Sequence record: MK509462 | Length of the DNA stretch: 64,000 nucleotides | DNA from: Shigella phage MK-13 | Direction: 5' to 3' (one strand) | Shown: one piece after another, positions 4,937 through 39,527 of the stretch | How positions within the stretch are numbered: position 1 is the stretch's first letter | Layout: the number at the start of each line of letters is the position of its first letter | The notes under the pieces: model-generated | The model's database searches: none | What the model was told of the DNA's origin: nothing | What the model saw: the letters and a program-made list of their open reading frames with translations, nothing else | Program-made: the position numbers and the translations under genes

Positions 4937-5257
4937 ATGGCTAACAGCATCCCAATTTTAGAAGCGGTCGTAAAAGAGAACCCTCGTGCGCGCAAATCGC
5001 GTCGTCGACTGGTCACCAAGCTGGACCTTCTGAAACAGAAGTTCGGCGACCACAGTGTGTTCGCTCGTATCCGTAATGCATTAAAGGAAGGAAGAACCGA
5101 GCTGGAGCTTTATCGCCCGAACGGTTCGACACGCGCGTATCAAACCACTGACGGCTTACTGGAACTGATCCGCCTGAGCGGGATGACAATCGAACCCCGT
5201 TCGTCAGGCACTCCTCTGTGCTCCCTGTATGTCATCGGCAATCTTGGGGCGCTGTGA
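4937..5257 (+). CDS. hypothetical protein (106 aa)
   Basis: ORF with GAGGA RBS after hairpin. Confidence 0.45.
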   Translation: MANSIPILEAVVKENPRARKSRRRLVTKLDLLKQKFGDHSVFARIRNALKEGRTELELYRPNGSTRAYQTTDGLLELIRLSGMTIEPRSSGTPLCSLYVIGNLGAL

Positions 5258-5262
5258 GTTCC

Positions 5263-5685
5263 ATGAAGAAATATATCGTACTCGTTACAGGTTCCCGCTC
5301 AATCACCGAGCGGGATAAGGTATTCGCCAAGCTGGACGAACTCCTCGATCCTCATGAAGTCTATACGTTGATCGAGGGTGAGGCCACGGGTGTCGACACG
5401 ATTTGCCGTGATTGGGCTGAAATCAATTATGTTCATACCACTCCTATGCCAATCCCTCCGAGCTATTATGAAAAGTATGGGAACGGGATGGGCAACAAAC
5501 GCAATCAGGACATGTTAGACAAGGCATTGGATCTCGCCAGGCAGACCAAGCTGGAAGTGTATCCGATTGCGATGTGGGATGGTTCGTCCACTGGCACCCT
5601 GGACATGATCAACCGTTGCAAGAAAGCTGGCCTCCCTGTGGACATCACACTGATGGGCAAGCCGAAGACCAAGCGCCTTTTGTAA
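5263..5685 (+). CDS. hypothetical protein, possible Rossmann-like (SLOG/LOG-like) fold
   Basis: N-terminal MKKYIVLVTGSRSI motif resembles Rossmann-type nucleotide-binding families; weak call. Confidence 0.35.
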   Translation: MKKYIVLVTGSRSITERDKVFAKLDELLDPHEVYTLIEGEATGVDTICRDWAEINYVHTTPMPIPPSYYEKYGNGMGNKRNQDMLDKALDLARQTKLEVYPIAMWDGSSTGTLDMINRCKKAGLPVDITLMGKPKTKRLL

Positions 5686-18768: not shown

Positions 18769-19170
18769 ATGAAACCTGTCATCTGTGATTACTGCGGCCT
18801 CCCAGCCGAATTCGTCGGTGGTGACGTCCTCCACCCTCATCGCCCTGACCTCCGCAATCTGAAGTTCTGGGTATGCACTCCATGTGGCGCTCGCGTCGGT
18901 TGCCATGCCCATGGCGACGGTAGACAACCTCTGGGAAGGATGGCGAATGCCGCTCTCCGTGCCGAGAAGCGAAAAGCCCATAGATCGTTTGACCCATTGT
19001 GGAAAAGCGGAGAGAGGAGCAGGAGCGACGCTTACAGTTGGCTGGCGCATAAGCTGGGGATCAAGAAGCGTGATTGCCATATCGGCTTGTTCGATATCGA
19101 CATGTGCCGTAAAGTAGTTGTTGTATGCAACCAATTACGGGAAACACAGAATGGCAACCATCAATCGTAA
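18769..19170 (+). CDS. zinc-finger protein (Cys/His-rich, 133 aa)
   Basis: CDYC...C..CGARVGCH Cys/His cluster. Confidence 0.5.
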   Translation: MKPVICDYCGLPAEFVGGDVLHPHRPDLRNLKFWVCTPCGARVGCHAHGDGRQPLGRMANAALRAEKRKAHRSFDPLWKSGERSRSDAYSWLAHKLGIKKRDCHIGLFDIDMCRKVVVVCNQLRETQNGNHQS

Positions 19171-19945
19171 TGAACCCAAAGGTGTTGAGCTGAAGGGTAA
19201 ATCTGTTCGCGAAGGTCTGAAGCTGTCTCCAGACCTCCTGAAGTCCCACATTGCTGAAGTCATCTATGAAGACCGTGAAGTCGGTGGTCATCGTGTCATC
19301 ACCTGCCATTTCAAGATGGACAACGGCTTTGTCGTCTTTGGTAAGAATAGCTCTACTTCCATCGACCCTGCCAACTTTGATGAAGAGTTGGGCAAGAAGC
19401 TGGCCTATGACAAGACTTTCTCCCAGTTGTGGGAACTGGAAGCCTACCGCGCCGTTGTGGAGAAGCAGATGTTGGAGGTGGCTACCGCCGATGCGAAGAT
19501 AGACATTTTCCAGTACATCTTCGAAAGGGGGAAGATAAACCAGATGGCTGGTATGGCATTCTTGAAAGGTCATAGCCAGTCTTTCGTGTTCCATCATCCA
19601 CGAGACCCAAGTCGCGGATTCGGTGCTGAATTTATTCATACCGACAACGAACTTCACAATGACCAACACAACAGCAAAGTCCAGGCCAGAGTGGAAACAT
19701 ATTTGCGTTCACACATGCGGCCTGATGAACTGTATTCTGAACTCGTTGTTCGCCTGGCCAAGACTTGCACGGCGGCTTACAAGGGTGGGATCTACTTTAA
19801 TGCCACCACTTGGGATAAGATGAGCGCCGAAGAGCAGAAAGGCTGCTGTGAAGACATTAGGCGGCTCTTGCTGGCTCCGGCGGATTATATCCCAACCGAC
19901 CAGAAGGACGCGCTGTTCAAGGCCATCGTCGATTCCTACAAATAA
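19151..19945 (+). CDS. hypothetical protein (264 aa)
   Basis: ORF overlapping upstream gene end; no motif recognised. Confidence 0.5.
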   Translation: MATINRNEPKGVELKGKSVREGLKLSPDLLKSHIAEVIYEDREVGGHRVITCHFKMDNGFVVFGKNSSTSIDPANFDEELGKKLAYDKTFSQLWELEAYRAVVEKQMLEVATADAKIDIFQYIFERGKINQMAGMAFLKGHSQSFVFHHPRDPSRGFGAEFIHTDNELHNDQHNSKVQARVETYLRSHMRPDELYSELVVRLAKTCTAAYKGGIYFNATTWDKMSAEEQKGCCEDIRRLLLAPADYIPTDQKDALFKAIVDSYK

Positions 19946-20055
19946 CTGAATTATCAAACTCCTTCAATATCAATGACGCCCAGTATATTTGCTGGGTGTT
20001 TCAATTTGTGCATCACAGTATAATACGGCTGTACAATACACCATGAGGCTACATT

Positions 20056-20910
20056 ATGTTTCGTTTGAAATTGAACGACCAAGATGTGTTCTACAAACAC
20101 TTCACCTTCCCAGGTGGTGAGGAACATATCAAGATCCAAAAGTCTGGTATCCCTATCGGCCACGTCCAGAACGTGGCGATTGATGCTCACATCAAATCAT
20201 CAGCCGACTTCGTTGAGCTGGCACTGCTGGTTAACGCCGTGCGCGGCCTGGGTAACGTGGACCGTCTGACGACCTTCCATGCGTATATCCCTTACTTCCC
20301 GTATGCTCGCCAGGACCGCCATTGCGACTTCGGCGAGCCTCTGTCCGTGAAGTGGGCGGCTGAGTTCATCAATAGCATGAACTTTGACCGCGTGGCGATC
20401 AAAGACCCTCACAGCCATGTTGTGTCTTCTCTTATCAACAACGTCCATGTGGTCCCGCAAGATTACATCGTGCGGCAGTATCTGGGCTGGTTCATCCGTG
20501 GGAACAACGCTGTGTTGGTAGCCCCTGACGGCGGCGCGGCTAAGAAGACCGAAGCCCTCAGCCTGTCTCTGGATGGCGTTCCTGTTGTCTACGGACACAA
20601 GAACCGTGACGCCAAGACTGGTGAGATCATTGGGGTGAGTATTACAACCCCTGAACTGATCAAAGACCGTTATCTGGTGGTGGTCGATGATATCTGCGAC
20701 GGTGGGCGCACGTTCGTTGAGTTAGGCAAAGAGCTTCAGAAGCACAAGCCCAAACACATGACGCTCTTCGTTACCCATGGCATCTTCAGCAAAGGGCTTT
20801 CCGTGTTCGACGGGATCTACGATGCTGTGTATGCCGACACTGTCTGGTGGGAGAATATCACCGCCGACGGTCTTCCTTTCAAAACTGAAAATACAGGACG
20901 TGTAAAATGA
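20056..20910 (+). CDS. ribose-phosphate pyrophosphokinase (Prs)-like; candidate ADP-ribose pyrophosphokinase
   Basis: Prs signature YFPYARQDR and PRPP-binding loop VVVDDICDGGRT. Confidence 0.85.
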   Translation: MFRLKLNDQDVFYKHFTFPGGEEHIKIQKSGIPIGHVQNVAIDAHIKSSADFVELALLVNAVRGLGNVDRLTTFHAYIPYFPYARQDRHCDFGEPLSVKWAAEFINSMNFDRVAIKDPHSHVVSSLINNVHVVPQDYIVRQYLGWFIRGNNAVLVAPDGGAAKKTEALSLSLDGVPVVYGHKNRDAKTGEIIGVSITTPELIKDRYLVVVDDICDGGRTFVELGKELQKHKPKHMTLFVTHGIFSKGLSVFDGIYDAVYADTVWWENITADGLPFKTENTGRVK

Positions 20911-22571
20911 GCATGCGCCACTTAGACCCAATCCATGCAATCGACTTCTACAAATCAGGGCACATCTATCAGTTCCCTGAAGGCAGCGAGCTGGTGTTCT
21001 CCAACGGAACTCCGCGCTCCAACAAACTGTTCAACTCTCACCTGCCGAAGAACGGCGTGGTGGTCTGGGGCATCCAGGGTTTCATGACTTGGTTCCATGA
21101 ACTGTTTGACGAAGCATTCTTCCAGCGCCCGAAGGCCAAGGTGTTGAAGAAGTATGCCCGTCGCATGAACAAAGTCCTGGGTCCAGGCCGCGTCGGCACA
21201 GAGCATATTGAAGCCCTGCATGACCTCGGCTACCTGCCTATCGAAGTCCGCGCGCTGCCTGAAGGCACCATGTGCCCGTATGGCGTTCCGGTGTATGTGA
21301 TGTTCAACACCCTGCCGGAGTTCTACTGGCTGACCAACTATCTGGAGACTGTGTTCAGCTCTGAGATCTGGAAGCCGATGACGAACGCCACTATCGCTCT
21401 GCATTACAAGGCACTGATGGTGAAAGCTGCCCTCGCTACAGGCGTGTCACCGGACCATTGGTTCATCGACTACCAAGGCCACGACTTCTCCTTCCGTGGC
21501 ATGAGCGGGTGGCATGACGCGGCGTCTTCCGGTTCCGGTCATCTGGTGTTCTTCAAAGGCACCGATACCAACCCTGCCCTGGACTTCGTTGAAGAGTATT
21601 ATGGCGCAGACATCGACGAAGACTATGTCGTTGCTGGCTCCGTTGCGGCTACAGAACACGCCGTGATGTGTATGGGTACGAAGGATGGTGAATTCGAAAC
21701 CTTCCGCCGCCTGGTGCAGGACGTGTATCCTGATGGCATCGTCAGCATCGTGTCTGATGCGTGGGATTACTGGCAGGTCATCGACGACTATCTCCCTCGC
21801 CTGAAAGATATTATCATGGCGCGTAACGGTAAAGTCGTGATCCGCCCTGACTCGGGCGACCCAGTTCATATCGTCGGCGGCTACCGCATTGAGGGGTTCA
21901 AAGACCGCGCCACGCTGAACATCAGCGGCGTGTCTAGCAGCACTGAAGTCATTCACATCGAAGAGACGAACACCTATCACCTGATCACAGGCGAAGGCAC
22001 GATCAACTCTCTGATGGCAGACGACCGTAATATCATCAGCCGTTCTGAAGCAGTCGGCTCTATCCAGCGACTGTGGGAGATCTTTGGCGGTACTCAAACT
22101 GAAACTGGCCACTTCCTGTTGGACGAACACATCGGTCTGATCTACGGTGACTCCATCACCCTGGCGCGTGAAGACCAGATCTTTAGCCGTCTGGCTGGCC
22201 GGAACTTCGCTTCCATCAACGTGGTGTTCGGTATCGGTTCCTACACCTACCAGATGAACACCCGTGACAGTACTGGCACGGCGGTGAAAGCAACGGCTGG
22301 TAAGGTGAACGGTGAATTCCGTGAGATCTTCAAAGAGCCGAAGACCGACAAAGGCGGGACTAAAAAGTCTGCGCGTGGTTTCCTTAAAGTCATTAAAGAC
22401 TCTCAGGGTAAACTAGTGTTGGTTGACGGTATCACCTTTGATCAGGTGCAAGACGCCGACAACCAGCACCAGCTGGTGTATCGTGATGGCAAGTTCTTCA
22501 ACACTCAAACTCTGGAAGATGCGCGTGTCCGCGCCGCTCCTCTGGTAGCAGAACTGGCATCACAAATCTGA
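20907..22571 (+). CDS. nicotinamide phosphoribosyltransferase (Nampt/NadV)-like; candidate nicotinamide ADP-ribose transferase
   Basis: N-terminal DFYKSGHIYQFP matches Nampt DSYKVTHYKQYP block; length 554 aa; start overlaps Prs stop (ATGA). Confidence 0.85.
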   Translation: MSMRHLDPIHAIDFYKSGHIYQFPEGSELVFSNGTPRSNKLFNSHLPKNGVVVWGIQGFMTWFHELFDEAFFQRPKAKVLKKYARRMNKVLGPGRVGTEHIEALHDLGYLPIEVRALPEGTMCPYGVPVYVMFNTLPEFYWLTNYLETVFSSEIWKPMTNATIALHYKALMVKAALATGVSPDHWFIDYQGHDFSFRGMSGWHDAASSGSGHLVFFKGTDTNPALDFVEEYYGADIDEDYVVAGSVAATEHAVMCMGTKDGEFETFRRLVQDVYPDGIVSIVSDAWDYWQVIDDYLPRLKDIIMARNGKVVIRPDSGDPVHIVGGYRIEGFKDRATLNISGVSSSTEVIHIEETNTYHLITGEGTINSLMADDRNIISRSEAVGSIQRLWEIFGGTQTETGHFLLDEHIGLIYGDSITLAREDQIFSRLAGRNFASINVVFGIGSYTYQMNTRDSTGTAVKATAGKVNGEFREIFKEPKTDKGGTKKSARGFLKVIKDSQGKLVLVDGITFDQVQDADNQHQLVYRDGKFFNTQTLEDARVRAAPLVAELASQI

Positions 22572-22613
22572 TAACCGAAGGGGAGGAAACTCCCCTGTTT
22601 TGAGGGAAACCTG

Positions 22614-22973
22614 ATGTCTGTGAAGATGAAAGGTGTCGAGTTCAATGCGTACTACCACGATGATGAATATTGGGTGAACGGCGCTTGGCACGACGATCAT
22701 TGCATCAAAGTCAATGGTGAATATCGCGAAGATGTAGACGCAGATATCCCCGATGACGCCGATGTGGTTATTGAATCCGGCGTGGTCTATGTTCCTGTGA
22801 ATGGCGAAAGCGGGGTGGAAGAAAAAGACATCTCACTCGTCACCCATTTCAAGAACTGGCGCAAACAGAAGAATTTCTCCTTCATTGTCGTGACGGTGGA
22901 GAAGAACAAGGTCGCCGATGTTCGCCAAGCCCTGCGGTCGATCCCTGGTGTCACCGAAGTCAAAGGTGGCTGA
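22614..22973 (+). CDS. hypothetical acidic protein (119 aa)
   Basis: ORF with GAGGGAAA RBS. Confidence 0.45.
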   Translation: MSVKMKGVEFNAYYHDDEYWVNGAWHDDHCIKVNGEYREDVDADIPDDADVVIESGVVYVPVNGESGVEEKDISLVTHFKNWRKQKNFSFIVVTVEKNKVADVRQALRSIPGVTEVKGG

Positions 22974-22975
22974 CA

Positions 22976-23145
22976 TGGCCAAACCATTTGAACGTGCGGG
23001 CGTCGACAACCTCGACCGCCGCTTTAGCCCATCGGAAACGCTGATGAGTCAGATTGAACTCAATCGCGATTTCCTGGAACACATGCTGGTCAAGCCGGAA
23101 GGTGAGGCCGAAGACAACCCTGAAGAAGGCAATAACGATGATTGA
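22976..23145 (+). CDS. hypothetical small acidic protein (56 aa)
   Basis: Short ORF tightly packed between neighbours. Confidence 0.3.
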
Positions 23146-25339
23146 ATCATTAGAATTTAAGAATGCGGTTGAGACTGCTGCCCCGTCCAACCATGTAATC
23201 GTTGTGGACATCTCTTATTCGATGTACCGTGCGCTCCCTGAAGTCCGTAAGCATCTGAAGGAGAACCTGCCTTCTCTGGTGAAACCGGAAGACACTGTGA
23301 GTGTTCTGTATTTCTCCTCCAAAGGCGACTTTGGCACAGTGTTTGCTGGTCGTCAAATCAGCGCGGCTTCCGACCTGAGTGAGATGAACAAACTGATCGA
23401 CCGCTTCCTACAACCGTCCGGATGCACCGGATTCGTGGAACCTCTGGGTCTGGCTGTAGACACCGCTCGTAGTCTGAAGAAGCCTGGTTATGTCAACAAC
23501 CTGGCATTCATGACCGACGGCTATGACAACTGCTGGCGCTCCAATGAAATCCTGGCCGTCGCCGAAACCCTGCCATTTGCTTTCGATAACATTACATTTA
23601 TCGAATACGGCTGGTACTGTAACCGCGAACTGCTGGCTCTGATGTCTGAGCGCTCCGGTGCGACCCACGTGTTTGCCGAAGGTCAGGTTGAGTATCAGGC
23701 CGAGCTGGAAACCGTGCTGAAGTCTTCAGTGCCGAAGGTGGTTGTTGATGTGCCTCTGCTATACACCCACGCCATCTATGTTGAAAACGGCGTGGCAACT
23801 GTTCTGGCAGTACAGGCAGACTCAGAGCATCCCGTTGGCCACGTGAGCATCCCTGAGAGCGTCACGAAGCTGTGGGTCGTCAATCCTAACATGATCGACC
23901 AGCTTGATGCGCTGGCGGACATCCAGGCGGCATACGTGCTGGCGTTCTATGGCGTACACATCATGGACGCCGATTTGGTATGGGCTGCCCTGAAGAAAAC
24001 GGGTGACGTTCGCTTCATCAAACAGTACAGCAACTGCTTCACCAAGCAGGACTACTCCAACATCAAGATCGATCTGGTTCAGGCTATTGTTGACGACCAG
24101 CTGCGCGGCGTTGACGGTATTGACTATGACCTGGTTCCAGCTGAAGATGCGACGACCGTCGTTGACGTGCTGACGTATCTGGCTGAAGCTGGCGTGTGTG
24201 TTGCTACCAAACATCCTATGTTCTCCTACAAGAGCATCGGTCGCGGTACGGCTCAGAAACTGGACGATACCGAAGACAAGCTGGCAGAACAGATCGCGAA
24301 CGCCGAGTCCAAAGAAGAGCGCAAAGCCCTGGCTCTCAAGCTGGCCGAGCACGAAGAGTGGAACCCGACGTTCGAACCTAACAACGATCTGGGTGTTGTG
24401 CCAATCAGCGATTTGGTCTATAACTCCGAACGCCCTAATATCAGTGTACGCACTGTCCAGCACGGCACTGTGGCGATTCCGGAGTTCGTGCAGAAGAAGT
24501 TCGGTCTGCCTGAAGAACTGGATACTTTCCAATGGCGCAACTACACCATCGTCAAAGACGGCATCATCAACGTGAAGACTCTGCCGTTCAGGGCTGATGT
24601 TGAAGTTGTAACCAATCTGTGCCAGATGGGCGTCCATGTGTTCGGTGGTCCGGAAGTGTTTGTCCTGAACCTGGAAAGCGTACCGCTGGTCAACCGCGCC
24701 ATGGTCAAGAACATCAGTGCTGCTCAGTTCTTTGCGGATAATGTCCGTCTGGAAGCCCTGAAAGGCAAGCAGAAGGTGCTGAAGTTCTTCCGTGATGAAC
24801 TGGTTGGCAAAGGTAACGCCAAAGGCCTGGCAGTACAGTACGGTGCTGAGGCGGCCGAGTTCCTGTCCTTCTACGGCATCCGTGATTACGGCTTCTCACC
24901 GAAGACCGAACTGAAGGACTCCACGGATGTCTACATGAGCCGTGAGCTGAACGTTAAGATCGCTGGAGCGTCTTCTCTGCCTAGCATCGCGGCAGTACAG
25001 AAGAAGATTGCCGAGAACAAGAAACTCAATGCGGGTGACTTGTTCATCGCCAATGCTCTGAAGGAATACGAAGCATTCGTGAAGTCTCCTGCGATCACTG
25101 CCGTGCCTGAAGCCGTACAGAAACAGCTGATCGAAAACTGGATCGACGCTGCTGCCAAGGCGGCCATCACTGAAGTCCGCGCCCTGAACAAGACGCTGTC
25201 TAAAGTGGTGTATGGTATCGTTGCTGGTCACGGCTGGTTCACCGACCTCGACCTGGAAGAGTCCACCATGGAAGTTGAAGTGGATGGTGTGAAGTACAAG
25301 GTCACTGCCGAACTGGCAGAGAAAGAGATCAAAATCTAA
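23138..25339 (+). CDS. von Willebrand factor A (vWA) domain protein (733 aa)
   Basis: MIDAS-like VVVDISYSM (D-x-S-x-S) near N-terminus followed by TDG...D elements; long C-terminal extension of unknown function. Confidence 0.65.
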   Translation: MIESLEFKNAVETAAPSNHVIVVDISYSMYRALPEVRKHLKENLPSLVKPEDTVSVLYFSSKGDFGTVFAGRQISAASDLSEMNKLIDRFLQPSGCTGFVEPLGLAVDTARSLKKPGYVNNLAFMTDGYDNCWRSNEILAVAETLPFAFDNITFIEYGWYCNRELLALMSERSGATHVFAEGQVEYQAELETVLKSSVPKVVVDVPLLYTHAIYVENGVATVLAVQADSEHPVGHVSIPESVTKLWVVNPNMIDQLDALADIQAAYVLAFYGVHIMDADLVWAALKKTGDVRFIKQYSNCFTKQDYSNIKIDLVQAIVDDQLRGVDGIDYDLVPAEDATTVVDVLTYLAEAGVCVATKHPMFSYKSIGRGTAQKLDDTEDKLAEQIANAESKEERKALALKLAEHEEWNPTFEPNNDLGVVPISDLVYNSERPNISVRTVQHGTVAIPEFVQKKFGLPEELDTFQWRNYTIVKDGIINVKTLPFRADVEVVTNLCQMGVHVFGGPEVFVLNLESVPLVNRAMVKNISAAQFFADNVRLEALKGKQKVLKFFRDELVGKGNAKGLAVQYGAEAAEFLSFYGIRDYGFSPKTELKDSTDVYMSRELNVKIAGASSLPSIAAVQKKIAENKKLNAGDLFIANALKEYEAFVKSPAITAVPEAVQKQLIENWIDAAAKAAITEVRALNKTLSKVVYGIVAGHGWFTDLDLEESTMEVEVDGVKYKVTAELAEKEIKI

Positions 25340-25381: not shown

Positions 25382-25708
25382 ATGAGCAGTAAACCAACAT
25401 ATGTTGAAGTCATGCGTCATCTGGCTCAGTACGCCACTGACAATCTGAACTTAGATGCAGACGAGGTGAAATACCCAAACGTCAAGAAAATGATTGACGG
25501 TGAAGTTGCCACAGACGATGCGTTGGATAAGTTTGCAGGCCTCCGCACCAAGAAGGATCTCGGCGGTGATGAACTGGACGCTATCGAAATTGTAATGGAC
25601 CTCGAAGAAGAGTTTCAGGTCGAAATCGACGACGGTTGGCTGGGTAGTAAAGGCGATGACCCGACCATGGGTGAACTCGCTGAACTCGTGGTTGCCCTGC
25701 GCAAATAA
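25382..25708 (+). CDS. acyl carrier protein-like protein lacking the phosphopantetheine-attachment serine
   Basis: DLGGDELDAIEIVMDLEEEFQVEI aligns with ACP helix II [24 protein letters not shown] but has Glu where the modified Ser should be. Confidence 0.7.
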   Translation: MSSKPTYVEVMRHLAQYATDNLNLDADEVKYPNVKKMIDGEVATDDALDKFAGLRTKKDLGGDELDAIEIVMDLEEEFQVEIDDGWLGSKGDDPTMGELAELVVALRK

Positions 25709-26083: not shown

Positions 26084-26133
26084 CGGCGGGGTATGATTAC
26101 CCCGTCTATTTGAAATGCAGGAACTATATCATG
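26084..26133 (+). repeat. intergenic hairpin cassette copy 1 (near-identical copy at 26643..26692)
   Basis: cggcggggtatgattaccccg...atttgaaa...tatatcATG; about 40 of 50 positions shared with copy 2. Confidence 0.7.
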
Positions 26134-26637
26134 ACCGATCAACAAATTCAAGATTTATTTTACCTCGCCCATGATAAGTCCCACATCATGCGCCCCGGTA
26201 CTGTTTCCCCTGCCGTCCGTGATCTGGTGCAAGAATTACGCGAACCACAGACGACCACACTTTATCGCGGGCTGCCTAAGGAGGACGTTGCGCGTTTAGA
26301 GATGTTGTTTGAACGAGGCGACATGTTCCAGACATGGGATTCTTGTCTTAGCTTCAGTGAACTGAAGCATGTGGCCAAACAATTTTCTAAATCGTACGGA
26401 ACCAAAGCTGTTGCCCGCATTTGTTACAAACATCGAAACGGACTCCCGGAGGGGCTTAATGTCTATGGTTCTCTAGAAAAATTTGTGAACAAAGGCGATG
26501 AATCAGAAATGGATATGCTGGACTTGGCGTCCATGGAGAAAGAATGGATATTCTGCCAGCCTCGCGTCATACCAGTTTCAAGAAAAATGGCAACAGACGG
26601 GACGATGGTTTTTACCGTATCACTTGTTACCCTATAA
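26131..26637 (+). CDS. hypothetical protein (168 aa), flanked by direct-repeat cassettes
   Basis: Start placed at ATG after conserved ctatatc context; bracketed by the 26084 and 26643 repeats. Confidence 0.5.
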   Translation: MTDQQIQDLFYLAHDKSHIMRPGTVSPAVRDLVQELREPQTTTLYRGLPKEDVARLEMLFERGDMFQTWDSCLSFSELKHVAKQFSKSYGTKAVARICYKHRNGLPEGLNVYGSLEKFVNKGDESEMDMLDLASMEKEWIFCQPRVIPVSRKMATDGTMVFTVSLVTL

Positions 26638-39043: not shown

Positions 39044-39201
39044 CTAATGTTCTGATTGCCACCGTTTTTCTAATTGCTTCTATAACCACGTTCATCTTAG
39101 GTTACAGGCGTGTATTTCAGGCCGATATTATCACTGGCCTGATGTATATCGCGCTGGGTTCATTTCTGGCGTTCGGCTTCTCTGGGTTTACGTTAGAATG
39201 A
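39040..39201 (+). CDS. hypothetical small membrane protein (53 aa)
   Basis: Sub-threshold ORF with ATGA overlaps at both ends; two hydrophobic segments. Confidence 0.35.
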   Translation: MTNVLIATVFLIASITTFILGYRRVFQADIITGLMYIALGSFLAFGFSGFTLE

Positions 39202-39527
39202 AAGTCGTCCACTTCAAGAAGGAGCCATACGACATCTACATTGGTCGTCCGGGCAAATGGGGGAACCCGTTCGAGGTCAGAGACCACGGGCGGGGCAACT
39301 GCGTAGAGTTGTTTGAGGACGACCTGTATGCGCGCCTGATTGAAGGAAATATCACCGAGGATGAACTCCTTGAGCTTGATGGGAAGATCCTGGGGTGCTG
39401 GTGTAAGCCGCGCCCCTGCCATGGAGATGTTTACGTCAAAGTCATCGGGCGTATTAAACTATTCCGCAAGCTGGGTAAATCCTTTACTGAACACCTGAGA
39501 CAAACATATGTCAGAAAACAAAGATGA
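39198..39527 (+). CDS. DUF4326-like protein
   Basis: YDIYIGRPGKWGNPF ... LGCWCKPRPCHGDV matches the DUF4326 signature as recalled. Confidence 0.55.
   Translation: MKVVHFKKEPYDIYIGRPGKWGNPFEVRDHGRGNCVELFEDDLYARLIEGNITEDELLELDGKILGCWCKPRPCHGDVYVKVIGRIKLFRKLGKSFTEHLRQTYVRKQR

What the first reader, a model, noticed from the sequence alone, without database searches (positions are those of the whole stretch)
20056..22571. Overlapping Prs-like + Nampt-like pair with no NMN adenylyltransferase: candidate NARP1-type NAD+ reconstitution module
Seen in sequence: a 284-aa Prs homolog (YFPYARQDR, VVVDDICDGGRT) and a 554-aa Nampt homolog (DFYKSGHIYQFP) overlap by 4 nt (ATGA), so they are translationally coupled. 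No HxGH NMNAT or Nudix motif was found in the neighbouring ORFs. Established knowledge: phages encode either NadV+NMNAT salvage or a two-enzyme pathway in which a Prs homolog pyrophosphorylates ADP-ribose and a Nampt homolog joins it to nicotinamide, rebuilding NAD+ after depletion by Thoeris, DSR, SIR2-HerA or SEFIR defenses. Inference: the gene pair architecture fits the second route better than classical salvage. The acidic small ORFs and vWA protein downstream may be co-regulated.
Basis: partly seen in the sequence, partly recalled or inferred. Interest (0 to 1): 0.8.

Follow-up and report, generated by a model that had tools for sequence, protein, structure and literature searches.

The report
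Known phage NAD+ rebuilding gene pair
This is a real, intact copy of NARP1, a two-enzyme phage pathway that rebuilds NAD+ after bacterial defences destroy it, and near-identical copies from sister phages are already listed in the paper that discovered the pathway, so it is correct but not new.

Summary
Two + strand genes, 20056-20910 (284 aa, Prs-like) and 20907-22571 (554 aa, Nampt-like), overlap in ATGA. No NMNAT, Nudix, Macro or RyR gene occurs in the window or in the closest complete genome.

The window comes from an Agtrevirus phage (Ackermannviridae), 97.6% identical here to Shigella phage ChubbyThor.

The NARP1 reading is supported:
- The Nampt-like protein is 45-49% identical to characterised Namats and 28-29% to NMNAT-linked Nampts.
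- Its best solved-structure match is the Namat crystal structure.
- It carries the Namat adenine-clamp helix (GSYTYQMNTRD).
- The Prs-like protein scores 274 bits on an Adps profile built without this phage family. Cellular Prs score 97-127 bits.
- It keeps the catalytic lysine.

It is already known. Osterman et al. list the ChubbyThor and SKML-39 proteins as Adps homologues and Adps-associated Namats. A 2024 Ackermannviridae review links these genes to that pathway. No enzyme from this clade has been assayed.

The suggested co-regulation with the downstream acidic ORFs and vWA gene is not supported. A terminator-like hairpin follows Namat, and relatives that lost the pair keep the vWA gene.

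The parts
19979..19996 (+). Hairpin (CCCAG-tatatttg-CTGGG, then TGTTTC) ending the upstream gene and marking the 5' boundary of the cassette
   Evidence: Read from the sequence. In Klebsiella phage phi1_146029 the upstream gene is different and a different hairpin (CCCCGC-cctgt-GCGGGG) sits at the same spot. That it is a terminator is inference.
19999..20025 (+). Conserved promoter-like block TTTCAATTTGTGCATCACAGTATAATA (TATAAT at 20019-20024)
   Evidence: Nearly invariant in ChubbyThor, May, phi1_146029 and RPN242, and it travels with the pair when the upstream context changes. The sigma-70 consensus scan did not flag it because the spacing to any -35-like hexamer is too short. It is not clearly recurrent in the window: 4 matches at up to 2 mismatches against 0.79 expected. 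Promoter function is inference.
20045..20048 (+). Shine-Dalgarno-like GAGG, 7 nt before the adps ATG
   Evidence: Read from the sequence.
20056..20910 (+). adps: ADP-ribose pyrophosphokinase (ADPR-PP synthetase), 284 aa, annotated in relatives as ribose-phosphate pyrophosphokinase
   Evidence: It scores 274 bits on an Adps profile built from 11 non-Ackermannviridae members. Leave-one-out members score 137-264 and cellular Prs 97-127. The NJ tree places it with PVP-SE1 and phiR1-37 inside the Adps clade. Lys182 in GHKNRD aligns with the SPbetaL1 catalytic K162. The SKML-39 and ChubbyThor orthologues are in Osterman Supplementary Table 1.
20895..20910 (+). Coupling junction: AGGA (20895-20898), then ATGA (20907-20910) where the namat start overlaps the adps stop
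   Evidence: The junction is identical in ChubbyThor, May and phi1_146029. A 4-nt overlap is also seen in mycobacteriophage Kingsolomon. Bas63 and ICP1 have short gaps instead. Translational coupling is inference.
20907..22571 (+). namat: nicotinamide ADP-ribose transferase, 554 aa, annotated in relatives as nicotinamide phosphoribosyltransferase
   Evidence: It scores 456 bits to PDB 9w5x/9w5w (SPbetaL1 Namat) against about 174 bits to mammalian NAMPT. It is 49.0% identical to SPbetaL1 Namat, 45.2% to Bas63 Namat and 28-29% to NMNAT-linked Nampts. The AlphaFold2 model (pLDDT 92.8) matches the Namat crystal structure best, with target TM 0.94 and rmsd 2.2 A. Catalytic-core residues D13, Y15, F194, S195, R197, D220, H251, R313, D315 and G414-D415 are present.
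21009..21056 (+). Selectivity-clamp loop (SCL), residues 35-50: TPRSNKLFNSHLPKNG, with K40-L41-F42
   Evidence: Aligned to SPbetaL1 R40 and to Bas63 K-W (PMC12774641). 'K-L' occurs in 19 and 'R-L' in 48 of the SCLs the pattern found among the closest 120 homologues. Which residue stacks on adenine here is not determined.
21882..22055 (+). Lineage-variable insertion of about 58 aa (residues 326-383) after RPDSGDPVHIVGG
   Evidence: Absent from SPbetaL1, Staphylococcus, ICP1 and mycobacteriophage Namats, and longer in Bas63. The segment is of basal length (about 27 aa, no insert) in 49 of 110 homologues and 70 aa or more in 40 of 110. There is no detectable similarity to the Bas63 insert. It is predicted to be an ordered alpha/beta subdomain with block pLDDT 83-96. 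Its function is unknown.
22230..22268 (+). Selectivity-clamp helix (SCH), residues 442-454: GIGSYTYQMNTRD
   Evidence: This is the Namat signature GS-X-phi-X-phi-X-phi-TRD (PMC12774641). All 120 closest homologues have GS[YF]TY.x.TRD, with position 7 being Y in 90, M in 13, F in 8, H in 8 and C in 1. True Nampts differ: H. ducreyi NadV GAQTYQRNTRD, Xanthomonas GGALLQKVDRD, T4-like phages GGGLLQ.
22579..22604 (+). Terminator-like hairpin AGGGGAG-gaaa-CUCCCCU followed by GUUUUGAG, 8 nt after the namat stop
   Evidence: The hairpin is the dominant element of the predicted fold of 22560-22615 (-17.3 kcal/mol in all; z-score only -1.6). The consensus scan did not flag it because the T-run is short. 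It is conserved in ChubbyThor and May, where the depositors annotated a terminator. A different GC hairpin plus TTT follows namat in phi1_146029. Function is inference.

Best explanation
The pair is a minimal two-gene NARP1 (NAD+ reconstitution pathway 1) cassette of an Agtrevirus (Ackermannviridae) phage. When a host defence such as type I Thoeris, DSR1/DSR2, SIR2-HerA, SEFIR or another SIR2/TIR NADase cleaves NAD+ into ADP-ribose and nicotinamide, the first enzyme (Adps, a diverged Prs) uses ATP to pyrophosphorylate the terminal ribose of ADP-ribose, giving ADPR-pyrophosphate. The second enzyme (Namat, a diverged Nampt with an adenine-binding clamp at the mouth of the active site) displaces the pyrophosphate with nicotinamide, giving NAD+ directly with no NMN intermediate and no NMNAT. 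The two genes are probably made from one short transcript with its own promoter-like block and terminator-like hairpin, and the ATGA overlap probably couples their translation. Shown here: the sequence, clade, motif, fold and genome-context membership. Taken from published work on orthologues (Bas63, SPbetaL1, Fado, DyoEdafos, Vibrio phage Gary): the chemistry and the anti-defence phenotype. Inferred: that this orthologue has the same activity, and the transcript structure. Because no Macro-domain phosphatase (Adpp) lies in the operon, it should not counter the aRES defence, which leaves ADPR-1''-phosphate.
For: (1) The window is 97.6% identical to Shigella phage ChubbyThor and 97.0% to Salmonella phage SKML-39, and the Namat is 99.8% identical to ChubbyThor's. 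(2) Osterman et al. (bioRxiv 10.1101/2024.02.11.579819) list SKML-39 JX181829_00048, with ChubbyThor OL615013_00159 as tree representative, in Supplementary Table 1 'Adps homologs' with 'Namat within 10 genes: Yes'. They list OL615013_00158 and JX181829_00049 as 'Adps-associated' in Supplementary Table 2. (3) Independent placement of Namat: 45-49% identity to the Adps-linked proteins against 28-29% to the NMNAT-linked ones. The tblastn distribution is bimodal, and every sampled upper-tier protein has a Prs-like neighbour, while two of the three sampled lower-tier loci (XacN1, Aes508) have an NMNAT or cytidyltransferase gene about 4.5 kb away. (4) It scores 456 bits to the Namat crystal-structure sequence against 358 to H. 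ducreyi NadV and 174 to human NAMPT. The fold search ranks Namat first. [quoted passage not shown] (6) Adps scores 274 bits on an Adps profile built without Ackermannviridae, against 97-127 for cellular Prs. It nests in the Adps clade, and the catalytic Lys is conserved. It falls below every curated NCBIfam Prs cut-off, for example 103.3 against 113 for TIGR01251. (7) There is no NMNAT, Nudix, NadR or PnuC in the window or in the relative's whole genome. (8) The pair is present or absent among close relatives, as expected of an accessory counter-defence cassette (8 of 14 Agtrevirus genomes in PMC10791037).
Against: No enzyme or phage of this clade has been assayed, so the activity is inferred from orthologues that are 29-49% identical. 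Two adenine-stacking positions deviate from the two characterised Namats. SCH position 7 is Met, where SPbetaL1 and Bas63 have Tyr. The SCL residue after Lys40 is Leu, where Bas63 has Trp. Both states are common among Adps-linked homologues, and published single-site clamp mutants lose only 1.3- to 1.7-fold activity. Identity of the Adps to SPbetaL1 Adps (29%) is not far above its identity to E. coli Prs (23%), so the separation rests on profile scores and tree position, not on raw identity. No Adps structure is available, so substrate-determining residues cannot be checked. The promoter and terminator are consensus-level inferences.
Confidence: 0.87

Rival explanations
1. Classical salvage as annotated in GenBank: the first enzyme is a true ribose-phosphate pyrophosphokinase making PRPP, the second a true Nampt making NMN, and host NadR or another NMN adenylyltransferase (or PncC plus NadD/NadE) completes NAD+ synthesis.
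For: Both proteins belong to the Prs and Nampt superfamilies, and relatives are annotated this way. SPbetaL1 Namat can still make NMN from PRPP in vitro when ADPR-PP is absent. The window's clamp has Met and Leu at two stacking positions.
Against: Both proteins fall in the Adps and Namat clades, not in the Prs clade or the NMNAT-linked Nampt clade. Curated Prs thresholds are not met. In Bas63 the pair still worked in a host lacking pncC and nadR, and purified SPbetaL1 Adps gave no Prs-type product. The published survey found no phage with both pathways, and true phage Nampts come with an NMNAT in 94% of cases. None is present here.
Confidence: 0.06
2. A relaxed-specificity variant: the Ackermannviridae Namat, with aliphatic or thioether residues (Leu41, Met450) in place of two aromatic clamp residues, uses both ADPR-PP and PRPP at comparable rates. 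The pair would then serve both as counter-defence and as a general NAD+/NMN booster.
For: The clamp deviations are real. Published double-clamp mutants lose ADPR-PP-driven synthesis but keep NMN synthesis.
Against: Position 3 (Tyr446), the equivalent of F392 in the most damaging published double mutant, is retained, as is Tyr448. Met at position 7 and Lys-Leu in the SCL recur in many Adps-linked homologues. Without a PRPP-making Prs or an NMNAT in the phage, the NMN route would bring little.
Confidence: 0.05
3. A nucleotide-supply function: the Prs-like enzyme boosts PRPP for purine and pyrimidine synthesis during replication, as proposed for Agtrevirus phages before NARP1 was described (PMC10791037).
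For: The authors of the Agtrevirus comparison suggested it. The window also encodes ribonucleotide reductase and other nucleotide-metabolism genes.
Against: It does not explain the strict pairing and overlap with a Namat. The protein is in the Adps clade, and the characterised Adps gave no Prs-type product. The pair is dispensable in 6 of 14 Agtrevirus genomes.
Confidence: 0.02

Closest known systems
NARP1 of Escherichia phage Bas63 (JohannRWettstein; genes 79-80) - Osterman et al., bioRxiv 10.1101/2024.02.11.579819 (later in Nature, doi 10.1038/s41586-024-07986-w)
   Same: It has the same gene order (adps then namat), a Gram-negative enterobacterial host, and no NMNAT. The Namat is 45.2% and the Adps 33.3% identical. 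The SCL has a similar length and pattern (TPRS-[ND]-K-x-FNS), and there is an insertion at the same site after RPDSGDPVHIV.
   Different: Bas63 has a 45-nt gap between the genes where the window has a 4-nt overlap. Its SCL stacking residue is Trp (Leu here) and its SCH position 7 is Tyr (Met here). Its insert is about 30 aa longer with no detectable similarity. Bas63 has been tested genetically and this clade has not.
NARP1 of Bacillus phage SPbetaL1 (Adps WIT26982.1; Namat crystal structures PDB 9w5x and 9w5w, PMC12774641)
   Same: It is the best sequence and fold match of the window's Namat (456 bits; target TM 0.94; 49% identity over the aligned core). All catalytic-core residues and the GS-aromatic-T-Y-Q-x-N-TRD helix are shared. 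The Adps catalytic Lys is shared (K162 there, K182 here).
   Different: SPbetaL1 Namat has no insertion, a shorter SCL with Arg40 stacking directly, and Tyr at SCH position 7. The Adps proteins are only 29% identical, and the phosphate-loop motif is DDLSSFGGTF there against DDICDGGRTF here.
NARP2 (Nampt/NadV + bifunctional NMNAT-Nudix NatV) of Vibrio phage KVP40 and T4-like or jumbo phages
   Same: It has the same Nampt superfamily fold and the same biological end, restoring NAD+ during infection.
   Different: It uses PRPP and needs an NMNAT. Its Nampts are only 28-29% identical to the window protein and have GGGLLQ in place of the aromatic clamp helix. An NMNAT gene lies nearby in XacN1 and Aes508 but is absent from this genome.
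NARP1-AP (Adps - Macro-domain phosphatase Adpp - Namat; Vibrio phage Gary) and NARP1 + RyDEP (mycobacteriophage DyoEdafos)
   Same: They share the core Adps and Namat.
   Different: The 4-nt overlap leaves no room for a third gene. No Macro or RyR domain was found in the window. Only a sub-threshold Macro-like protein (gp59) lies about 70 kb away in the relative ChubbyThor.
Cellular ribose-phosphate pyrophosphokinase (E. coli Prs) and cellular Nampt (H. ducreyi NadV PDB 9ke8; human NAMPT)
   Same: They have the same folds, and motifs such as PYARQDR, DD..D.GG.T and the Nampt catalytic core are shared.
   Different: The first protein is 23% identical to E. coli Prs and below all curated Prs cut-offs. 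It has DPHS where Prs has DLHA, and HKNRDxxTGEI where Prs has the DKRRPRANV flexible loop. The second protein differs from NadV at clamp positions 3 and 7 (Y and M here, Q and R in NadV).

Membership tests
NARP1 - Adps (ADPR-PP synthetase) | Prs-superfamily protein (Pribosyltran_N + Pribosyltran domains) | tested here: met
   Pfam PF13793 at 26.8 bits and PF00156 at 35.8 bits, both above cut-off. PHROG 619 at 302 bits.
NARP1 - Adps (ADPR-PP synthetase) | Falls in the Adps clade, separate from cellular Prs (the criterion of Osterman et al.) | tested here: met
   It scores 274 bits on a profile of 11 non-Ackermannviridae Adps. Leave-one-out members score 137-264 and E. coli, human and M. smegmatis Prs score 127, 111 and 97. 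The NJ tree nests it with PVP-SE1 and phiR1-37. It is below all NCBIfam Prs cut-offs. Near-identical orthologues are listed in the authors' Supplementary Table 1. My tree has only three cellular Prs and no bootstrap.
NARP1 - Adps (ADPR-PP synthetase) | A Namat homologue within ten genes | tested here: met
   It is directly adjacent and overlaps by 4 nt.
NARP1 - Adps (ADPR-PP synthetase) | Catalytic lysine equivalent to SPbetaL1 K162 (K162A abolishes activity) | tested here: met
   SPbetaL1 GHK(162)QRN aligns with window GHK(182)NRD.
NARP1 - Adps (ADPR-PP synthetase) | Pyrophosphorylates ADP-ribose with ATP and is inactive as a Prs | not testable with these tools
   This needs purified protein and LC-MS. 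No Adps structure exists to check substrate-site residues.
NARP1 - Namat (nicotinamide ADP-ribose transferase) | Nampt-like fold with an intact catalytic core (SPbetaL1 D13', Y15', F189, R192, D215, catalytic His, R306, D308, G360-D361) | tested here: met
   The window has D13, Y15, F194, R197, D220, H251, R313, D315 and G414-D415. Most are invariant in a 66-sequence alignment. The model matches 9w5x with target TM 0.94.
NARP1 - Namat (nicotinamide ADP-ribose transferase) | Belongs to the Adps-associated clade, not the Nmnat-associated Nampt clade | tested here: met
   It is 45-49% identical to six Adps-linked proteins and 28-29% to three proteins of the NMNAT-linked Nampt tier, two of which have an NMNAT gene nearby. 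ChubbyThor and SKML-39 are labelled 'Adps-associated' in Supplementary Table 2.
NARP1 - Namat (nicotinamide ADP-ribose transferase) | SCH signature GS-X-phi1-X-phi2-X-phi3-TRD with an aromatic residue at position 3 (SPbetaL1 F392) | tested here: met
   The window has G-S-Y446-T-Y448-Q-M450-N-T-R-D. Position 3 is Tyr, phi1 Thr, phi2 Gln and phi3 Asn, all as in the published consensus. True Nampts have Q, A or G at position 3.
NARP1 - Namat (nicotinamide ADP-ribose transferase) | Typical but not universal feature: an aromatic residue at SCH position 7 (SPbetaL1 Y396). [quoted passage not shown] | tested here: not met
   The window has Met450. Among the 120 closest homologues position 7 is Y in 90, M in 13, F in 8, H in 8 and C in 1, so Met is the second commonest state. 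Published single clamp mutants lose only 1.3- to 1.7-fold activity. I treat this as within-family variation and not as a failed defining feature.
NARP1 - Namat (nicotinamide ADP-ribose transferase) | The SCL loop supplies an adenine-stacking residue (third residue Arg, or the residue after Lys/Tyr) | tested here: inconclusive
   The window has S38-N39-K40-L41-F42. The third residue is Lys as in Bas63, but the next is Leu and not Trp, and Phe42 follows. 'K-L' is found in 19 of the SCLs the pattern matched among the closest 120 homologues. No ligand-bound model was available to say which residue contacts adenine.
NARP1 - Namat (nicotinamide ADP-ribose transferase) | Prefers ADPR-PP over PRPP and makes NAD+ directly | not testable with these tools
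   This needs a competition assay with the purified enzyme.
NARP1 (pathway) | Protects the phage from NAD+-depleting defences (SIR2-HerA, DSR1/2, Thoeris I, SEFIR) | not testable with these tools
   This needs deletion or knock-in phages and plaque and NAD+ assays. It has been shown for Bas63, Fado and SPbetaL1 only.
NARP2 (Nampt + NMNAT) | An NMNAT (KVP40 NatV-like) encoded in the same genome | tested here: not met
   No CTP_transf_like or NUDIX domain in the window. tblastn over the window plus the whole ChubbyThor genome gave a best E of 0.82 against a control of 3.7e-50. Nothing in the annotation.
NARP1-AP / NARP1 + RyDEP (extended operons) | A Macro-domain phosphatase (Adpp) or RyR-domain glycosidase (PF02026) in the NARP1 operon | tested here: not met
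   The genes overlap, and no Macro or RyR domain was found in any window ORF scanned. A distant gp59 in ChubbyThor has only a sub-threshold Macro hit, 16.7 bits against 22.
Canonical ribose-phosphate pyrophosphokinase (Prs) | Reaches the curated NCBIfam/TIGRFAM score cut-offs for Prs | tested here: not met
   TIGR01251 gives 103.3 bits against a cut-off of 113. All equivalog and subfamily models are far below cut-off, for example 81.7 against 297.

The most novel reading that the evidence does not exclude
The Ackermannviridae form could be a functionally distinct NARP1 variant. Its adenine clamp uses Leu41 and Met450 where the two characterised Namats use aromatic residues. It carries an ordered insertion subdomain of about 58 residues that has no counterpart in the solved structure. 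A remote Macro-like protein (gp59 in the relative ChubbyThor) might supply Adpp activity in trans. Together these could alter substrate range, for example by accepting PRPP or modified ADP-ribose species, or could extend protection to aRES-type defences without an operon-encoded phosphatase.
Probability: 0.08. Interest if true: 0.4.

Novelty: already known. Interest (0 to 1): 0.15.

Why it matters
The finding adds little that is new. It confirms that a tool-free reading of raw sequence can correctly recognise a recently described counter-defence pathway. It also shows that GenBank annotations of this pair ('ribose-phosphate pyrophosphokinase' and 'nicotinamide phosphoribosyltransferase') are functionally misleading. 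For phage therapy and biocontrol with Ackermannviridae phages (Salmonella, Shigella, E. coli, Klebsiella), whether a candidate carries an intact pair may predict its performance on hosts with NAD+-depleting defences. The pair is intact here, fused by a deletion in Ag3, reduced to a remnant in Dickeya phages and RPN242, and absent from A221. No enzyme of this clade has been assayed, so a direct test would extend the experimental coverage of NARP1 modestly.

Tried and rejected
(1) NMNAT, Nudix, NadR, PnuC, Macro or RyR genes in the window: none was found in any ORF scanned. None was found by tblastn or motif scans over the relative's whole genome either.

(2) A sigma-70 promoter upstream of adps: the consensus scan flagged nothing on the + strand there. 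The conserved TTTCAA-N14-TATAATA block is not convincingly recurrent in the window, with 4 matches against 0.79 expected and only one exact. I report it as promoter-like only.

(3) The consensus terminator scan did not flag the hairpin after namat. I keep it as terminator-like because of its fold, its conservation, and the depositors' annotation in phage May.

(4) A functional link to the downstream acidic ORFs, vWA protein and ACP-like protein: I rejected this as unsupported. The small ORFs differ or are missing in May and phi1_146029. vWA and ACP persist in RPN242, A221 and Dickeya phiD3, which lack a functional pair. No family or structure hit gives the acidic ORF a function.

(5) Met at clamp position 7 and the insertion as signs of something unusual: I rejected this after seeing both are common among homologues.

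(6) The motif as a false diagnostic because bacterial chromosomal homologues carry it: I rejected this, because those homologues also sit next to Adps-like genes.

(7) ChubbyThor gp59 as an Adpp: it has only a sub-threshold Macro hit and a weak PDB hit, so I left it as a lead.

(8) ORF 26110-26637 as an Alt-like ADP-ribosyltransferase: it has one PHROG hit to the C-terminal end of a long composite profile, no Pfam hit and no PDB hit, so this is unresolved.

(9) I did not run the representative-library HMMER search, metagenome scans or a second structure prediction. The question was already settled, and they would not separate Adps from Prs chemistry.

Full report
OBSERVATION. The window has two + strand ORFs exactly as described. 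ORF 20056-20910 (284 aa) contains YFPYARQDR and VVVDDICDGGRT. ORF 20907-22571 (554 aa) contains DFYKSGHIYQFP. The ATG of the second gene overlaps the TGA of the first (ATGA at 20907-20910). Pfam assigns Pribosyltran_N plus Pribosyltran to the first and NAPRTase to the second. PHROGs assigns them to the phage 'ribose-phosphate pyrophosphokinase' and 'nicotinamide phosphoribosyl transferase' families. A GAGG lies 7 nt before the first ATG and an AGGA 8 nt before the second.

WHERE THE WINDOW COMES FROM. The 2.5-kb pair is 97.6% identical to Shigella phage ChubbyThor and 97.0% to Salmonella phage SKML-39, both genus Agtrevirus, family Ackermannviridae. At the protein level the second gene is 99.8% identical to ChubbyThor's. 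The window is collinear with ChubbyThor.

IS THERE AN NMNAT? Pfam scans of the ten immediate neighbours and of 70 further selected window ORFs of 90 aa or more returned complete family lists (fewer than 25 families per batch). None contained CTP_transf_like, NUDIX, Macro, RyR, NadR-type or PnuC domains. To cover the rest of the genome I fetched all of ChubbyThor. I then searched the window and ChubbyThor with the NMNAT-Nudix proteins of Xanthomonas phage XacN1 and Aeromonas phage Aes508. The best tblastn E-value was 0.82, while the two queries hit each other at 3.7e-50. Regular-expression scans for the Nudix box and the NMNAT signature found nothing.

WHAT THE SECOND PROTEIN IS. Against solved structures, its best sequence match is PDB 9w5x/9w5w at 456 bits. 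Next comes H. ducreyi NadV (9ke8) at 358 bits, then mammalian NAMPT at about 174 bits. 9w5x and 9w5w are the crystal structures of SPbetaL1 Namat described in PMC12774641.

A tblastn search of 50,697 phage records gave 2,045 hits with a bimodal identity distribution, apart from the near-identical Ackermannviridae copies. A large tier sits at roughly 37-46% and a tail at 25-29%. I sampled both tiers. In the upper tier (Bas63, Staphylococcus phage Maine, ICP1, mycobacteriophage Kingsolomon, Bacteroides phage DAC15) a Prs-like gene lies immediately beside the Nampt homologue, or one small gene away. In the lower tier, XacN1 has a bifunctional NMNAT/ADPR-pyrophosphatase and Aes508 a 352-aa cytidyltransferase about 4.5 kb away. 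No NMNAT was seen within 6 kb in Matisse, the third lower-tier locus.

In a joint alignment the window protein is 49.0% identical to SPbetaL1 Namat and 45.2% to Bas63 Namat. It is 28.4-28.7% identical to the three lower-tier proteins.

An AlphaFold2 model built on 66 homologues is confident (mean pLDDT 92.8, pTM 0.92). Foldseek ranks the Namat crystal structures first (target TM 0.94, rmsd 2.2 A, 42% identity). H. ducreyi NadV follows (36% identity), then mammalian NAMPT (24%).

THE CLAMP TEST. PMC12774641 defines what separates Namat from Nampt. It is an adenine-binding 'selectivity clamp' made of a variable loop (SCL, beta1-beta2) and a conserved helix (SCH). The SCH has the signature GS-X-phi1-X-phi2-X-phi3-TRD. 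[quoted passage not shown]

The window has G444-S-Y446-T-Y448-Q-M450-N-T-R-D454. Position 3 is aromatic, and phi1, phi2 and phi3 are Thr, Gln and Asn, the commonest published states. Position 7 is Met.

As controls, the closest true Nampts have no aromatic residue at positions 3 and 7. H. ducreyi NadV has GAQTYQRNTRD, Xanthomonas Nampt has GGALLQKVDRD, and the T4-like phage Nampts have GGGLLQ.

Among the 120 closest database homologues, all have GS[YF]TY.x.TRD. Position 7 is Tyr in 90, Met in 13, Phe in 8, His in 8 and Cys in 1. The Met state also occurs outside the Ackermannviridae-like cluster.

In the SCL the window reads S38-N39-K40-L41-F42, and Bas63 reads S-D-K-W-F. According to the paper, when the third residue is Lys the next residue stacks on adenine. 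That residue is Trp in Bas63 and Leu here. 'K-L' is nevertheless the second commonest state (19 homologues), after 'R-L' (48).

I conclude that the clamp is of the Namat type and lies within the family's normal variation. The paper reports that single clamp substitutions cost only 1.3- to 1.7-fold activity. The catalytic-core residues (D13, Y15, F194, S195, R197, D220, H251, R313, D315, G414-D415) are all present.

THE INSERTION. Relative to SPbetaL1 Namat, the window protein has about 58 extra residues (326-383) after RPDSGDPVHIVGG. Bas63 has a longer insert at the same site, with no detectable similarity to this one. Among 110 homologues the segment is of basal length (about 27 aa, no insert) in 49 and 70 aa or more in 40. 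The model predicts an ordered small alpha/beta subdomain (strands 328-331, 348-351 and 356-359; helices 334-339, 366-371 and 379-383; block pLDDT 83-96). It is a common variable site, and its function is unknown.

WHAT THE FIRST PROTEIN IS. No Adps structure is in the PDB, and the best hit is M. smegmatis Prs at 68 bits. The protein falls below every curated NCBIfam Prs cut-off, for example TIGR01251 at 103.3 bits against 113.

I built a profile from 11 Adps-clade proteins, none from Ackermannviridae. They were Bas63, SPbetaL1, Staphylococcus phage Maine, ICP1, Kingsolomon, DAC15, phi92, PVP-SE1, phiR1-37, RP12 and A511, with sequences from Osterman Supplementary Table 1 and from fetched loci. 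The window protein scores 274 bits, above every leave-one-out score of the members themselves (137-264). E. coli Prs scores 127, human PRPS2 111 and M. smegmatis Prs 97 (the latter two were partial sequences). A neighbour-joining tree places the window protein with PVP-SE1 and phiR1-37 inside the Adps clade, apart from the three cellular Prs.

Pairwise identity is 44% to PVP-SE1, 39% to phi92, 33% to Bas63, 29% to SPbetaL1 and 23% to E. coli Prs. Several motifs are shared with Adps but not with Prs:
- DPHS, where Prs has DLHA.
- PDGGAAKK.
- HKNRDxxTGEI, where Prs has the flexible loop DKRRPRANV.
- DDICDGGRTF, where Prs has DDMIDTGGTL.

The lysine whose mutation inactivates SPbetaL1 Adps (K162) aligns with Lys182.

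WHAT IS ALREADY PUBLISHED. Osterman et al. (bioRxiv 10.1101/2024.02.11.579819) described NARP1. They found it in 859 phage genomes, 4.3% of those surveyed. Their Supplementary Table 1 ('Adps homologs') lists SKML-39 JX181829_00048 with ChubbyThor OL615013_00159 as its tree representative. It also lists other Ackermannviridae (Ag3, 0507-KN2-1, P46FS4, maane), all marked 'Namat within 10 genes: Yes'. Their Supplementary Table 2 lists OL615013_00158 and JX181829_00049 as 'Adps-associated'.

Sorensen et al. 2023 (PMC10791037) reported NAMPT and RPPK genes in 8 of 14 Agtrevirus genomes. The 2024 review of Ackermannviridae (PMC11721090) explicitly connects these genes with Osterman et al.'s counter-defence.

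The finding is therefore already known at the level of this very lineage. What has not been done is any experiment on an Ackermannviridae enzyme or phage. The tested systems are Bas63, SPbetaL1, Fado, DyoEdafos, Vibrio phage Gary and Paenibacillus foliorum.

HOW IT MOST LIKELY WORKS. By homology, Adps transfers pyrophosphate from ATP to the terminal ribose of ADP-ribose. Namat then replaces the pyrophosphate with nicotinamide to give NAD+ directly. ADP-ribose is scarce unless a defence NADase has fired, so the pathway is expected to be idle in undefended hosts.

This is the minimal two-gene form. Extended forms carry a Macro-domain ADPR-1''-phosphatase (NARP1-AP, which counters aRES) or a RyR-domain glycosidase (RyDEP, which feeds cyclic ADPR signals into the pathway). 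Neither is present here, so I predict no protection against aRES.

CASSETTE BOUNDARIES AND THE DOWNSTREAM GENES. Eight nucleotides after the namat stop lies a 7-bp GC-rich hairpin with a GAAA loop, followed by GUUUUGAG (22579-22604). It is the dominant element of the predicted fold of that stretch (-17.3 kcal/mol). The consensus scan missed it because the T-run is short. It is conserved in ChubbyThor and in Klebsiella phage May, whose depositors annotated a terminator at that spot. In Klebsiella phage phi1_146029 a different GC hairpin plus TTT follows namat.

Upstream, a hairpin (19979-19996) is followed by a nearly invariant block, TTTCAATTTGTGnATCnCAGTATAATAC (19999-20026). In phi1_146029 the upstream gene and the hairpin sequence differ, but the block is retained. 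This looks like a self-contained transcription unit, although promoter and terminator function are inferred.

The locus is variable within the family:
- RPN242 has deletions corresponding to window 20204-22031 and 22177-23133.
- A221 lacks the pair.
- Dickeya phiD3 keeps a 110-aa Namat remnant and no Adps.
- All three keep the vWA and ACP-like genes.
- The small ORFs between namat and the vWA gene differ between ChubbyThor, May and phi1_146029.

I therefore find no support for a functional or regulatory tie between the pair and the acidic ORFs or the vWA gene.

VERDICT. The finding is already known, and its interest is low. The residual uncertainty of about 13% is whether this untested orthologue has the same substrate preference as its characterised relatives.

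Noticed in passing
window ~20713-20720 and ~21585-21592; protein P0009 (Shigella phage Ag3): In Shigella phage Ag3 the pair is fused into one 547-aa ORF (Adps residues 1 to about 222 joined to Namat from about residue 224 to 554). The junction falls in an 8-bp repeat, TTCGTTGA, present in both genes (protein FVE/FVE). This looks like a microhomology deletion that should kill both enzymes. PHROG 12872 (547 positions) is built on this chimera, which explains why some relatives annotate the Prs-like gene as 'nicotinamide phosphoribosyl transferase'.
   Followed up: partly
L011 (Escherichia phage RPN242), L019 (Dickeya phage phiD3), L020 (Escherichia phage A221); window 20204-23133: The pair is an accessory, decaying locus in Ackermannviridae. 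RPN242 keeps the promoter-like block, the first ~148 bp of adps and a 145-bp internal namat fragment. Dickeya Limestonevirus phages keep only a 110-aa Namat remnant. A221 has nothing. The flanking 672-aa gene and the vWA gene are retained in all three.
   Followed up: yes
L012 6001-7467 (Fibrella aestuarina chromosome) and L013 6001-7515 (Chitinophaga caseinilytica chromosome): Bacteroidota chromosomes encode Namat-type proteins (about 50% identical to the window's, with the GS[YF]TYEYVTRD helix). A Prs-like gene lies beside them (Fibrella) or one gene away (Chitinophaga), and these score 260 and 242 bits on my Adps profile. They sit in operons headed by an NrtR-type Nudix regulator (ADP-ribose responsive), together with an ADP-ribosylglycohydrolase or a Tpt1/KptA RNA 2'-phosphotransferase. 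This suggests housekeeping recycling of ADP-ribose to NAD+ under ADP-ribose control. Osterman et al. raise this possibility in general terms.
   Followed up: partly
L014 45122-45736 (ChubbyThor gp59; outside the window): A 204-aa protein annotated 'putative ADP-ribose binding protein' has a sub-threshold Macro-domain hit (16.7 bits against 22) and a weak hit to a macro-type PDB entry (5m3i, E = 0.024). If it is an ADPR-1''-phosphatase, it could act as an Adpp in trans for the NARP1 pair encoded about 70 kb away.
   Followed up: partly
window 26110-26637 (+): A 175-aa ORF 3.5 kb downstream of the pair hits PHROG 832 'RNA polymerase ADP-ribosylase' (E = 1.8e-15), but only the C-terminal end of a 1480-position profile. 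It has no Pfam or PDB hit. It may be a remnant or a small Alt-like, NAD+-using ADP-ribosyltransferase.
   Followed up: partly
window 5218-5685 (+) and 39198-39527 (+): Two other small genes have domains I recall, from memory only, as being linked by comparative genomics to nucleotide or ADP-ribose-centred conflict systems: a YspA/cpYpsA-related SLOG domain (PF10686, E = 3e-11) and DUF4326 (PF14216, E = 6e-24). Their functions are unknown.
   Followed up: no
window 23054-25339 (+) and 25382-25708 (+): A large protein (about 730-760 aa) has a weak N-terminal vWA domain (22.2 bits, just under the 23.8 cut-off). It is followed by a 108-aa acyl-carrier-protein-like gene (PP-binding, 26.2 bits). This pair is conserved across Ackermannviridae whether or not NARP1 is present. 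Its function is unknown.
   Followed up: partly
window 96-27941 (ORF set of alignment A1): One ORF carries the helical domain of 5-hmdU DNA kinase (PF18723, E = 3e-81). This fits the known thymidine hypermodification pathway of Vi1-like (Ackermannviridae) phages.
   Followed up: no
L018 4533-5288 (Klebsiella phage phi1_146029); window 19118-19945: In Klebsiella-infecting relatives the gene order around the pair is rearranged, and a 251-aa gene downstream of namat is annotated 'anti-CRISPR protein'. It has the same length as the N4 gp49/Sf6 gp66-family gene (PF13876) that lies downstream of the vWA-side hairpin region upstream of adps in phage May and in the window. I did not test whether they are homologous or whether the anti-CRISPR label has any basis.
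   Followed up: no
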